From the IMG/VR virus record IMGVR_UViG_2531839527_000012: a DNA stretch of 25,720 nucleotides. The stretch is one strand, 5' to 3'. The position numbers and the translations under genes are program-made. Under the pieces are notes generated by a model that had not been told where the DNA came from, did not search any database, and saw only the letters and a list, made by a program, of their open reading frames with translations. How positions within the stretch are numbered: the stretch's first letter is position 1; every line of letters starts with the position of its first letter. Below are positions 24,369 through 25,720 of the stretch, piece by piece. This stretch comes from a virus (lineage: Duplodnaviria; Heunggongvirae; Uroviricota; Caudoviricetes).

Positions 24369-24896
24369 AATTTAGTGATGAATGTTGAATCATCTGGAAT
24401 ATCATGCAATACCAATGCATGAGCACCTATTGTGACATTGTTTCCTATACGCACTTTGCCACCAAGAATGGTGGCATTACAACCAATGGTCACATTATGT
24501 CCTATAACAATATCCATATCATTAAAATCACCACGCAGCCCAATAGTTACCCCTGGTTTTATTGAACAATTTTCACCGATTGTTACTTTGTGACCGATAA
24601 CAACACTGTTGAGATAAGAAATATCATCGGGCATTATCTGAACATAAAACACTATCAGTAAGTTGGAGTCACTACCCAAGAATGAAACGTTCTATTTTCC
24701 CCGCAATCTTCCGGCAGTATCCGCCTTTATCAAAAAGGTATTTGGCTATGCGCCACCAAAATAAATAACGAAGTCTTCTATGTTTTATTGCGCGAACAAT
24801 TGCCTTTCGCCAGGAGAAAGGACGCTCGCTACCGATTACTTCATAGTGAATACAGTCTTTAAGTTCATTAATATTCATATCTCTATTATTCAGCAT
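24332..24896 (-). pseudogene. Hexapeptide-repeat (left-handed beta-helix) acetyltransferase, AT-rich, split by one frameshift
   Basis: Two overlapping minus-strand ORFs (24672-24896 and 24332-24679). The downstream ORF has tandem hexapeptide repeats (VIGHKVTIGENCSI, IVIGHNVTIGCNATI, VRIGNNVTIGAHALV); the upstream ORF has an N-terminal RLRYLFWWRIAKYLF segment. Both read ...FILG / ...FLGSDS around 24672-24680. Visibly more AT-rich than flanking phage genes. Confidence 0.7.
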
Positions 24897-25066
24897 AAGA
24901 TAATCATGTGACCAATTATTGTAATAATTTTAATGGTATGTTTCTACTGGCTATCCAGCATGTCTGATGTCCAGTAACAAATCGTTAACACTGGTGCAAT
25001 CAAATGGTGAGTGTTAAGACTGGCCACTTATTACCAGGTATGAGGGTATGAGTGGCCAGCATTAAA

Positions 25067-25561
25067 TCAGAACAGCCCTTTAACTGAACTGGCCGCGCTG
25101 TTAAGGGATGATGTCACTTTATCTTTGAAGCCGGACAGCATATCGCTGAACGATGAGGATTGCAGGCGCTCCCGCAAATCCTCATCACAGCGTTCAAGGG
25201 TCAGTGAAAATTCTATCTTTTTCGCCTTACCGTAGCGATCAAACTCGGAACGGGTCGTATTCGTTTCGGTCAGGACATACATGCCGTAAATCTGCCCGAC
25301 GCCATCAATAAGAGGCCAGGGGCGTCCTGTATACGCCTGCGTGGTCAGCAGCGACAGCGACACTTCGCCACCTGTAATTTCAGGATAAAGCACACCAGAA
25401 AGAACGATGCGATCATCACCTGCACCGATATACTGCCAGCTTGCTGAACGGTTAACGCGTTCATTTTTCACATGCCGCCAGCTTTTGTTTTGCTGTAACT
25501 GCTGATGCGGCAGCGTGCGCAGCTCAAAAACAAACATGCCGTAGATCATCATCATGGCCAT
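25067..25561 (-). CDS. U: Tail protein, P2 gpU-like
   Basis: 164 aa; MFVFELRTLP, SWRH, YPEITGG, PWPLIDG, IYGMYVL and KIEFSLTLER follow the P2 gpU family pattern from memory. GGAG ribosome-binding site upstream on the minus strand. Confidence 0.8.
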   Translation of the reverse strand: MAMMMIYGMFVFELRTLPHQQLQQNKSWRHVKNERVNRSASWQYIGAGDDRIVLSGVLYPEITGGEVSLSLLTTQAYTGRPWPLIDGVGQIYGMYVLTETNTTRSEFDRYGKAKKIEFSLTLERCDEDLRERLQSSSFSDMLSGFKDKVTSSLNSAASSVKGLF

Positions 25562-25568
25562 GACTCCT

Positions 25569-25720
25569 CAATCTTTATCGTAAAAACTGCCACGCCCGGC
25601 ACGGGCGCGCCGTTCCATTTCTGCCCTGACCATTTCACCGACCAGTTTCGCCAGTTCGCGGGGATTCTGCGTAACAACGTTATGCAGATGAACATGAATT
25701 TCACCACCAAATCCGGAGGC
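25569..25720 (-). CDS. T: Tail tape measure protein, C-terminal end (P2 gpT-like), truncated by the window edge
   Basis: The minus-strand frame translates to ...ASGFGGEIHVHLHNVVTQNPRELAKLVGEMVRAEMERRARAGRGSFYDKD and stops at 25571-25569, 7 nt upstream of the U start. Identification rests on position and general character of tape-measure C-termini. Confidence 0.6.

What the first reader, a model, noticed from the sequence alone, without database searches (positions are those of the whole stretch)
24369..25720. Tail tape-measure and gpU on the opposite strand with gpD missing: rearrangement or second prophage junction
In P2 the FI-FII-E-T-U-D block is co-oriented with H and G. Here T and U run on the minus strand, converging on the tail fibre block, and only ~170 bp of non-coding DNA lies where gpD should be. 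This indicates an inversion or deletion, or the truncated end of a second oppositely oriented P2-like element.
Basis: partly seen in the sequence, partly recalled or inferred. Interest (0 to 1): 0.5.

Follow-up and report, generated by a model that had tools for sequence, protein, structure and literature searches.

The report
Normal P88-type prophage tail-gene order
The "backwards" tail genes are the standard gene order of a common E. coli prophage family (phage P88 and relatives), and gene D is not lost: it lies about 5 kb past the point where this draft contig ends, so the finding is ordinary.

Summary
The sequence facts hold. gpU (25067-25561) and the C-terminus of tape-measure T (25552-25720) are on the minus strand and converge on H and G. 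No D gene follows U.

The window is the left 25.7 kb of a P88-type (Xuanwuvirus) P2-like prophage. In this lineage the FI-FII-E-E'-T-U block is inverted relative to P2, and D sits beyond FI on the plus strand, divergent from it.

- Phage P88, 12 other phage records, the closest complete genome (ETEC E1739) and 66 of 66 informative IMG/VR relatives all show this order.
- The G–U junction is contiguous in 110 complete E. coli genomes, and the FI/D junction in 1109.
- Position 25720 is the physical end of the source contig (APXN01000063.1), which is why D is not seen.
- No invertase, flanking inverted repeats, second integrase or host DNA was found.

The G–U slot holds AT-rich cargo: a hexapeptide acetyltransferase pseudogene (24332-24896). 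In it, 53 bp of an IS1 end replace about 50 bp of the gene. This patch is probably a consensus artefact from a second, IS1-truncated copy.

A conserved TGT-N12-A(C/G)A dyad in the FI/D spacer suggests a P/O-like divergent late promoter (inferred).

The parts
21715..23751 (+). Tail fibre gene H, C-terminal ORF of 678 aa. The N-terminal part (21096-21512) is cut off by single-base deletions in this draft sequence.
   Evidence: Pfam Collar and Phage_fiber, phrog_295 E 1.8e-158. The intact 885-aa gene is present in L001 and L002. Deletions at 21496 and 21579.
23751..24368 (+). Tail fibre assembly gene G, the last gene of the rightward late block.
   Evidence: Pfam Caudo_TAP E 3.8e-39, phrog_105 E 1.3e-93.
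24332..24896 (-). Cargo gene in the G–U slot: a hexapeptide-repeat (CysE/WcaB-like) acetyltransferase, here a pseudogene split into ORFs 24672-24896 and 24332-24679.
   Evidence: Both ORFs hit phrog_2154 (positions 2-70 and 88-184 of 185), and Pfam Hexapep E 4.9e-13. The intact 181-aa version is in L002 and falls below every NCBIfam equivalog cut-off. GC is 37-40% against 50-52% in the flanks. The gene is absent from P88, which carries an invertible fibre cassette and invertase in the same slot.
24624..24676 (.). 53 bp identical to one end of IS1, replacing about 50 bp of the acetyltransferase gene (net +1 bp). Probably a consensus or assembly artefact, possibly a real scar.
   Evidence: Alignment to L001 and L002. 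100% match to IS1 copies and to the IS1|acetyltransferase junction of the truncated remnant L005. No complete genome carries the left junction. Flanking variants at 24714-24960 are remnant-type, and from 24969 onward they are intact-prophage-type.
24897..25066 (.). Non-coding spacer that belongs to the cargo insert. It contains sigma-70-like promoter matches for the acetyltransferase (24946-24885, minus strand) and hairpins just after the U stop codon.
   Evidence: No ORF of 50 aa or more. Promoter-like sites. Homology with P88 starts only at 25062, 5 bp beyond the U stop.
25015..25060 (-). 10-bp GC-rich stem-loop immediately 3' of U on the minus strand, followed by a second 7-bp hairpin. Candidate end of the FI-to-U transcript, but not a canonical intrinsic terminator.
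   Evidence: RNA fold -26.1 kcal/mol, z -3.7, 0 of 200 shuffles as good. The stem is conserved while the loop carries an 8-bp indel in L005. It was not called by the terminator scan.
25067..25561 (-). gpU, the tail tube initiator. It is the last gene of the inverted FI-FII-E-E'-T-U operon.
   Evidence: Pfam Phage_P2_GpU E 5.5e-39. 99% identical to P88 gpU and 44% to P2 gpU. Role taken from the P2 cryo-EM preprint.
25552..25720 (-). C-terminal 55 codons of tape-measure gene T, cut by the end of the source contig.
   Evidence: phrog_38463 E 8.3e-35. Annotated as a 935-aa tape measure protein in L001, L002 and L006. Window position 25720 is the end of contig APXN01000063.1.
12776..12798 (-). Comparator inside the window: the dyad TTGTTGT-N12-AGAA in the divergent P/O late-promoter spacer. 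The same motif sits in the FI/D spacer of relatives.
   Evidence: It is the only exact match in the window. In L002 the only exact matches are in the P/O and FI/D spacers. The geometry is given.

Best explanation
The window is the left 25.7 kb of a single P2-like prophage of the P88 type (genus Xuanwuvirus, family Peduoviridae), inserted between btuC and ihfA. In this lineage an ancient inversion, now fixed, turned the FI-FII-E-E'-T-U part of the P2 'F operon' around.

The gene order is therefore ...V W J I H G (rightward), then a variable cargo slot, then U T E' E FII FI (leftward), then D (rightward), more cargo, ogr and hok. D, the baseplate hub, is no longer next to its partner U, the tube initiator. 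It is transcribed separately and divergently from FI. D is not visible here only because the draft contig ends inside T.

Shown:
- the gene identities and strands;
- the identical order in active phages and in hundreds of genomes;
- the contig end at position 25720.

Inferred:
- The 157-bp FI/D spacer works like the P/O spacer. One Ogr-type activator dyad, TGT-N12-A(C/G)A, would serve two back-to-back late promoters, so the leftward FI-to-U transcript and the D transcript are both switched on late.
- The rightward O-to-G transcript and the leftward FI-to-U transcript end in the AT-rich cargo slot. In this element the slot carries an acetyltransferase moron with its own promoter.
For: Gene calls:
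- U, the T C-terminus, H, G and the acetyltransferase are identified.

Same order with intact D beyond FI:
- E. coli 1190, ETEC E1739 and phage P88 NC_026014.
- The window matches P88 at 91-99% identity in four collinear blocks.
- The window matches E1739 at 99.75% over 1-12983 and at 98.4% over 11035-25720.

Inversion relative to P2:
- FI, T and U give minus-strand hits and D gives plus-strand hits.

Prevalence:
- The G–cargo–U–T junction is contiguous in 110 complete genomes.
- The U-to-FI/D block is present in 13 phage records.
- The FI/D junction is contiguous in 1109 of 5426 complete genomes.
- 66 of 66 IMG/VR loci with D in reach have D divergent from FI, and none has U followed by D. 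gpU identity in these loci ranges from 62 to 100%.

Viability:
- P88 and Citrobacter phiSM are inducible or active phages.

Contig end:
-.

Promoter inference:
- Each of 16 diverse FI/D spacers has exactly one TGT-N12-A(C/G)A. Its centre lies 80.5-88.5 nt from the FI ATG (83 nt in P2 PF, from the P2 annotation). It lies about 68-75 nt from the likely D ATG in 15 of the 16 loci, and 83.5 nt in L084.
- The extended motif TTGTTGT-N12-AGAA occurs exactly only in the P/O and FI/D spacers.
- The P/O geometry is similar: 73.5 nt to the P ATG and about 81.5 nt to the O ATG.
- P2 itself annotates one shared activator site for pP and pO.
Against: - The part of the element to the right of 25720 cannot be read in the source assembly. 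Its order is inferred from relatives, the closest being about 98-99.8% identical.
- The last 1.1 kb of the contig shows signs of mixed origin (the IS1 patch and a switch of haplotype). The physical continuity of this particular contig is therefore not fully trustworthy.
- The promoter model rests on motif conservation and spacing only. The exact P2 consensus TGT-N12-ACA is absent from the E. coli-type spacer, which has AGA instead.
- No canonical intrinsic terminator was found in the convergence zone.
- I found no paper that explicitly describes the inversion.
Confidence: 0.9

Rival explanations
1. The right-hand 1.1 kb of the window (24624-25720), or part of it, is a collapsed or chimeric consensus of two copies in the same genome. 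One copy is the intact prophage. The other is an IS1-truncated remnant made of IS1, an acetyltransferase fragment, U-T-E'-E-FII-FI, D, ogr and hok. Reads spanning the remnant's IS1 junction overwrote about 50 bp of the intact gene. This is compatible with the main explanation and does not change the gene order.
For: - The patch replaces sequence of almost the same length, 53 bp for about 50 bp.
- It is 100% identical to the IS1 junction of remnant loci L005-L007 and L009-L011.
- Variants at 24714, 24773, 24855 and 24960 are remnant-type. All distinguishing sites from 24969 onward are intact-type.
- The closest complete genome, E1739, carries both loci.
- No complete genome has the window's left junction.
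- The contig ends 1.1 kb further on.
- The window has clusters of single-base deletions typical of a low-quality consensus.
Against: - No reads are available, so this is an inference.
- A de Bruijn graph assembler would not join IS1 to the gene through only 3 bp of shared sequence.
- A real deletion after an IS1 insertion could give the same sequence.
Confidence: 0.5
2. A recent rearrangement in this genome, either an inversion of the tail module or a deletion of D, produced a defective prophage.
For: The order differs from P2. The window shows several broken genes.
Against: - The same order is found in active phages P88 and phiSM and in every relative examined.
- D is intact in the closest genome.
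- No inverted repeats link the two breakpoints.
- The broken genes are explained by scattered 1-bp deletions typical of draft error.
Confidence: 0.03
3. The T-U block is the truncated end of a second, oppositely oriented P2-like prophage that abuts the first.
For: - IS1-truncated remnants that begin exactly with this acetyltransferase fragment followed by U-T do exist in 8 complete ETEC genomes and in several drafts.
- The window carries their IS1-end sequence.
Against: - In those genomes the remnant lies elsewhere on the chromosome, near tRNA-Leu/Cys or serS, and not next to G.
- In the window the acetyltransferase C-terminal half continues directly into G, as in intact prophages.
- In E1739 the element between btuC and ihfA has one integrase, one D and one ogr.
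- From 24969 onward the window has the intact-prophage haplotype.
Confidence: 0.03
4. The FI-to-U block is an actively invertible segment flipped by a site-specific invertase, like the Gin, Cin or Pin systems.
For: P88 and some relatives carry a DNA invertase in the neighbouring G–U slot.
Against: - That invertase serves the small alternative tail-fibre cassette, not the 5.6-kb tail block.
- The window has no invertase gene in the slot.
- No inverted repeats flank the block.
- Orientation was the same in 66 of 66 loci. The single exception in strand relations, L017, is an IS66-associated rearrangement that lost FI-FII-E.
Confidence: 0.01

Closest known systems
Escherichia phage P88 (Xuanwuvirus P88, NC_026014) and relatives: P884B11, PhiR44_2, 500465-2, Chuche and Citrobacter phiSM
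   Same: - Same gene order along the whole window: int, C, cox, A, ParM, Q and P leftward, O to G rightward, then U and T leftward.
- 91-99% nucleotide identity in collinear blocks.
- gpU is 99% identical.
- D is divergent from FI.
   Different: - The cargo in the G–U slot differs. P88 has an alternative tail-fibre cassette plus a DNA invertase (25416-27564). The window has an AT-rich acetyltransferase pseudogene and a 170-bp spacer. Homology resumes 5 bp after the U stop codon.
- The C-terminal part of H also differs (no match between 21124 and 25062).
Phage P2 (Peduovirus P2, NC_001895), F operon FI-FII-E-E'-T-U-D
   Same: - Same set of tail genes with the same internal order FI to U.
- A cargo slot after G (Z/fun in P2).
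- A late activator dyad about 83 nt upstream of FI.
- A divergent P/O late-promoter spacer with one shared activator site.
   Different: - In P2 the block is co-oriented with H and G, and the U stop overlaps the D start (22791). U and D are therefore co-transcribed and probably translationally coupled.
- Here the block is inverted and D is a separate, divergent unit.
- gpU is only 44% identical.
- P2 has an S–orf30–pV spacer. In this lineage S and V abut.
IS1-truncated P88-type tail-module remnant of ETEC genomes (for example E1739 at 2.094-2.103 Mb, locus L005)
   Same: It carries the same acetyltransferase N-terminal fragment, spacer, U and T, at 98.45% identity to window 24624-25720. The IS1 junction is identical.
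   Different: It lacks everything to the left of the junction: no G, H, baseplate, head or replication genes. It sits at other chromosomal sites. It is present in only 8 of 5426 complete genomes.
Invertible tail-fibre segments of Mu (G/Gin), P1 (C/Cin) and e14 (P/Pin)
   Same: These are DNA inversions next to tail-fibre genes in temperate myoviruses. An invertase of this family is present in the same slot in P88.
   Different: Those are small, reversible switches flanked by inverted crossover sites. Here there is a 5.6-kb evolutionary inversion in a fixed orientation, with no flanking repeats and no invertase in the window.

Membership tests
P2-like (Peduoviridae) contractile-tail module | A gpU homologue (Pfam Phage_P2_GpU) | tested here: met
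   25067-25561 (-), PF06995 E 5.5e-39, above the gathering score.
P2-like (Peduoviridae) contractile-tail module | Tape-measure gene T directly upstream of U on the same strand | tested here: met
   25552-25720 (-) is the T C-terminus and overlaps the U start. The full 935-aa T is present in relatives.
P2 / Peduovirus-type F operon order | FI-to-U block co-oriented with V-W-J-I-H-G, with D immediately after U on the same strand | tested here: not met
   U and T are on the opposite strand to H and G, and no D follows U. blastn of the relative against P2 shows the FI-to-U block inverted and D direct.
Xuanwuvirus (P88-type) genome organisation | High nucleotide identity and collinearity with P88 across early, head, lysis and baseplate genes | tested here: met
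   Four collinear blocks at 91-99% identity cover 2633-3879, 4910-8796, 9464-21124 and 25062-25720.
Xuanwuvirus (P88-type) genome organisation | G (+), cargo, then U-T-E'-E-FII-FI (-), then D (+), then ogr and hok (+) | tested here: inconclusive
   The part inside the window (G, cargo, U, T) is met. The remainder lies beyond the contig end. It is met in the closest complete genome E1739, in P88 and in 66 of 66 relatives.
Site-specific invertible segment (Gin/Cin/Pin type) | A serine invertase gene adjacent to the segment, and inverted crossover sites flanking it | tested here: not met
   No resolvase-domain ORF between G and U in the window. No inverted repeat joins the two breakpoints in L002. 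Orientation is invariant.
Junction of two prophages or a tandem element | A second integrase or att site, duplicated modules, or host DNA between the two blocks | tested here: not met
   Only a 565-bp cargo gene and a 170-bp spacer lie between G and U. The equivalent element in E1739 is single-copy and bounded by btuC and ihfA.
P2-family Ogr/Delta-dependent late promoter | A TGT-N12-ACA dyad centred about 55 nt upstream of the transcription start | tested here: inconclusive
   A conserved TGT-N12-A(C/G)A is present in the FI/D spacer of 16 diverse relatives and in the window's P/O spacer, with P2-like distances to the start codons. Transcription starts and activator binding cannot be tested with these tools.

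The most novel reading that the evidence does not exclude
In the P88 lineage the inversion rewired the late regulon. It separated the hub gene D from its structural partner U. It also created a second P/O-like divergent late promoter, in which one Ogr-type dyad in the 157-bp FI/D spacer drives both the FI-to-U operon and D. The conserved spacing over relatives with only 62% gpU identity is compatible with this. I found no paper describing it.
Probability: 0.5. Interest if true: 0.25.

Novelty: already known. Interest (0 to 1): 0.1.

Why it matters
It matters little beyond correct annotation. P2 is not a safe template for gene order in all P2-like prophages. An annotator who uses it would wrongly call P88-type prophages rearranged or defective, although their FI/D junction is present in about a fifth of complete E. 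coli genomes. Two small practical points follow. First, the G–U convergence zone is a cargo hot spot: invertase cassette, acetyltransferase, IS1. Second, this particular draft contig has a low-quality, possibly chimeric end that should not be over-interpreted.

Tried and rejected
- **Second prophage or tandem junction: rejected.** The equivalent element in E1739 is single and bounded by btuC and ihfA.
- **Recent inversion or deletion of D: rejected.** The order is invariant in phages and genomes, and D is intact in relatives.
- **Active invertible segment: rejected.** There are no flanking inverted repeats. The repeats found are short, non-collinear and at chance level, apart from the local hairpin after U.
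- **Whole junction as an assembly error: rejected.** 110 complete genomes carry it contiguously.
- **Exact P2 consensus TGT-N12-ACA in L002.** There were two hits, neither in a late spacer and fewer than chance. Aligning diverse spacers then revealed the relaxed dyad.
- **My first count of genomes with the IS1|acetyltransferase junction was wrong.** The figure of 1232 came from a 76-nt query that was mostly IS1. A balanced query gives 8 genomes.
- **Rfam scan of 23700-25720.** It gave only a sub-threshold IS009 hit inside G.
- **Terminator scan.** It found no canonical terminator in the spacer.
- **Literature searches.** P88, Xuanwuvirus and P2-like gene-order searches found no explicit description of the inversion.
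- **Extending the window in its source assembly.** Not possible, because the contig ends at 25720.

Full report
**What is in the sequence**

The window reads as a P2-like prophage from its left end.
- The integrase is at 878-1999 (-).
- The replication gene A is at 4562-7429 (+).
- Portal Q (9915-10961) and terminase P (10961-12712) are on the minus strand.
- A long rightward run of head, lysis, tail-completion and baseplate genes follows. It ends with tail fibre H (21715-23751) and fibre assembly G (23751-24368).

To the right of G everything is on the minus strand.
- Two ORFs, 24672-24896 and 24332-24679, together match one 185-aa hexapeptide acetyltransferase family, phrog_2154 (positions 2-70 and 88-184). 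They also match Pfam Hexapep.
- A 170-bp stretch, 24897-25066, has no ORF.
- gpU is at 25067-25561 (Pfam PF06995, E 5.5e-39).
- The last 55 codons of the tape-measure gene T are at 25552-25720.

**What the neighbours look like elsewhere**

The 2.7 kb spanning H, G, the acetyltransferase, U and T is contiguous in 110 complete E. coli genomes, about 98-99% identical in those listed.

In E. coli 1190 and in ETEC E1739 the annotation continues with T, E', E, FII and FI on the minus strand. An intact D follows on the plus strand (367 aa in E1739), and then ogr and hok.
- The window is 99.75% identical to the E1739 element over 1-12983, starting exactly after btuC.
- It is 98.4% identical over 11035-25720.
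- In E1739 the element is a single prophage of about 36 kb between btuC and ihfA.

blastn of this relative against P2 gives reversed hits for FI, T and U and direct hits for D. In P2 all of FI to D share the strand of H and G. The block FI to U is therefore inverted relative to P2, with D left in place.

**This is a known phage type**

The U-to-FI/D block is present in one piece in 13 phage records. They include Escherichia phage P88 (Xuanwuvirus P88), P884B11, PhiR44_2, Chuche and Citrobacter phiSM.

The P88 reference genome has the same order throughout and matches the window at 91-99% identity in four collinear blocks. P88 is an inducible phage that lyses a range of E. coli strains, and phiSM is an active temperate phage. 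The arrangement is therefore compatible with a working virus.

A scan of IMG/VR with a gpU alignment returned 80 loci. In all 66 where D was within reach, D lay upstream of FI and divergent from it. In none did D follow U. These loci include relatives with only 62-80% gpU identity.

The divergent FI/D junction itself is contiguous in 1109 of 5426 complete E. coli genomes.

No inverted repeats connect the two breakpoints, and the window has no invertase in the slot.

The only locus with different strand relations, L017, is an IS66-associated rearrangement that has lost FI, FII and E.

**Why D is not seen**

An exact-protein look-up of the 74-aa ORF found the source: NCBI assembly GCA_000356385.1, contig APXN01000063.1 (48,746 bp). 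Window 14672-25720 is 100% identical to the terminal 11,049 bp of that contig. Window position 25720 is the contig's last base. D would lie about 5.3 kb further on.

**The cargo slot and the IS1 patch**

Homology with P88 resumes only 5 bp after the U stop codon. The stretch from about 24300 to 25050 has 37-40% GC, against about 50% on either side. The acetyltransferase and the 170-bp spacer therefore form a cargo insert in the slot where P88 carries an invertible fibre cassette and P2 carries Z/fun.

Inside the acetyltransferase gene, 24624-24676 is 100% identical to one end of IS1. It replaces about 50 bp of the gene with almost no change in length. The right-hand junction is identical to that of an IS1-truncated remnant. 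The remnant consists of IS1, the acetyltransferase fragment, U-T-E'-E-FII-FI, D, ogr and hok. It is found at other chromosomal sites in E1739 and several ETEC drafts, but in only 8 complete genomes. My earlier figure of 1232 was an artefact of a query that was mostly IS1.

Several observations point to a mixed consensus of two copies rather than a real scar.
- The four variants between 24714 and 24960 are of the remnant type.
- All distinguishing sites from 24969 onward are of the intact-prophage type.
- No complete genome has the window's left junction.
- The window has clusters of single-base deletions relative to its relatives at 14157-14413, 15102-15492, 20564-20671 and elsewhere, and these break several genes.
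- The contig ends 1.1 kb beyond the patch.

I rate this at about 0.5. Only the reads can decide. Either way the gene order is unaffected, because the intact prophage and the remnant have the same genes to the right of the junction.

**How it most likely works (inferred)**

In P2, gpD forms the trimeric baseplate hub and gpU forms the hexameric tube initiator that sits on it. Their genes overlap. In the P88 lineage they are in separate transcription units.

The FI/D spacers of 16 diverse relatives each contain exactly one TGT-N12-A(C/G)A dyad.
- Its centre lies 80.5-88.5 nt from the FI start codon. The corresponding distance for PF in P2 is 83 nt, from the annotation.
- It lies about 68-75 nt from the likely D start codon in 15 of the 16 loci, and 83.5 nt in L084.

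The extended form TTGTTGT-N12-AGAA occurs exactly once in the window, in the divergent P/O spacer at 12776-12798. In L002 it occurs exactly only in the P/O and FI/D spacers.

In the window's P/O spacer the dyad centre is 73.5 nt from the P start and about 81.5 nt from the homology-supported O start at 12867. P2 annotates a single shared activator site for its divergent pP and pO promoters.

The simplest model is that the FI/D spacer is a second P/O-like unit. One late-activator site would switch on FI-to-U leftward and D rightward.

On the minus strand a strong stem-loop starts a few bases after the U stop codon (-26.1 kcal/mol, z -3.7). Its stem is conserved and its loop is variable. It may end the FI-to-U transcript, but it lacks a proper T tract, and the consensus scan found no canonical terminator in the spacer.

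**Verdict**

The explanation is ordinary: this is the standard gene order of a common, already sequenced phage genus, seen through a window that stops at a contig end. The gene order is on record in deposited genomes. I found no paper that discusses the inversion or its consequence for D expression. That is the only mildly new angle.

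Noticed in passing
window 24624-24676: 53 bp identical to an IS1 end replace about 50 bp of the acetyltransferase gene. The right junction is identical to that of an IS1-truncated tail-module remnant in ETEC genomes. The left junction is unique to this contig. It is either a consensus artefact or a real scar.
   Followed up: yes
window 14157-14413, 15102-15492, 16026-16030, 17344, 20564-20671, 21496-21579: Clusters of single-base deletions relative to near-identical prophages, not confined to homopolymers. They split M/L-region genes, I (20568-21085) and H (21096-21512 plus 21715-23751) into fragments. ParM (about 7505-8464) also appears fragmented. This points to a low-quality draft consensus rather than gene decay.
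   Followed up: partly
L005 (E. coli E1739, NZ_CM180506.1 2085552-2103618); also L006, L007, L009-L011: A stand-alone remnant: IS1, acetyltransferase fragment, U-T-E'-E-FII-FI(-), D, ogr and hok(+). It has no baseplate, fibre or head genes. It lies near tRNA-Leu/Cys or serS and is present in 8 complete ETEC genomes. E1739 carries both the remnant and the intact prophage, a situation comparable to the phiSM/CRPr20 'reservoir' idea.
   Followed up: partly
L017 3628-12272 (IMGVR_UViG_2690316161_000021): A P88-type element in which an IS66 sits between a truncated H and a truncated T. T and U are co-oriented with J, followed by an invertase and an alternative fibre end. FI, FII and E are missing. 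This is an IS-associated inversion or deletion, the only odd one among the 80 loci.
   Followed up: partly
L002 21078-24475 (E1739 prophage, beyond the window): A four-gene His-Xaa-Ser radical-SAM system (hxsDBCA) is carried as cargo between D and ogr. The 1190 prophage has a different small gene there, and its D is annotated as shortened (267 aa).
   Followed up: no
window 25588-25609 (-): A strong terminator-like hairpin (8 pairs, 7 of them G-C) followed by GCAGTTTTTA lies inside the last codons of T, just upstream of the U start codon. It could attenuate transcription into U. It lies within the 25062-25720 block that is 98.9% identical to P88.
   Followed up: no
window 18749-18752; L002 7739-7751: S and V abut or overlap, whereas P2 has about 940 bp there with a terminator, orf30 and the pV promoter. 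In this lineage O to G may be one long late operon, leaving only the two divergent late spacers, P/O and FI/D.
   Followed up: no
window 24094-24292 (+): A sub-threshold Rfam hit to the candidate sRNA family IS009 (80.8 bits against a gathering score of 117) inside the 3' part of the fibre-assembly gene G. It most likely reflects homology of tfa genes rather than an RNA gene.
   Followed up: no
window 7505-8770: ParM-like segregation ATPase and partition-protein genes lie downstream of the replication gene A, as in P88. This is an unusual, plasmid-like feature for an integrated P2-like prophage.
   Followed up: no
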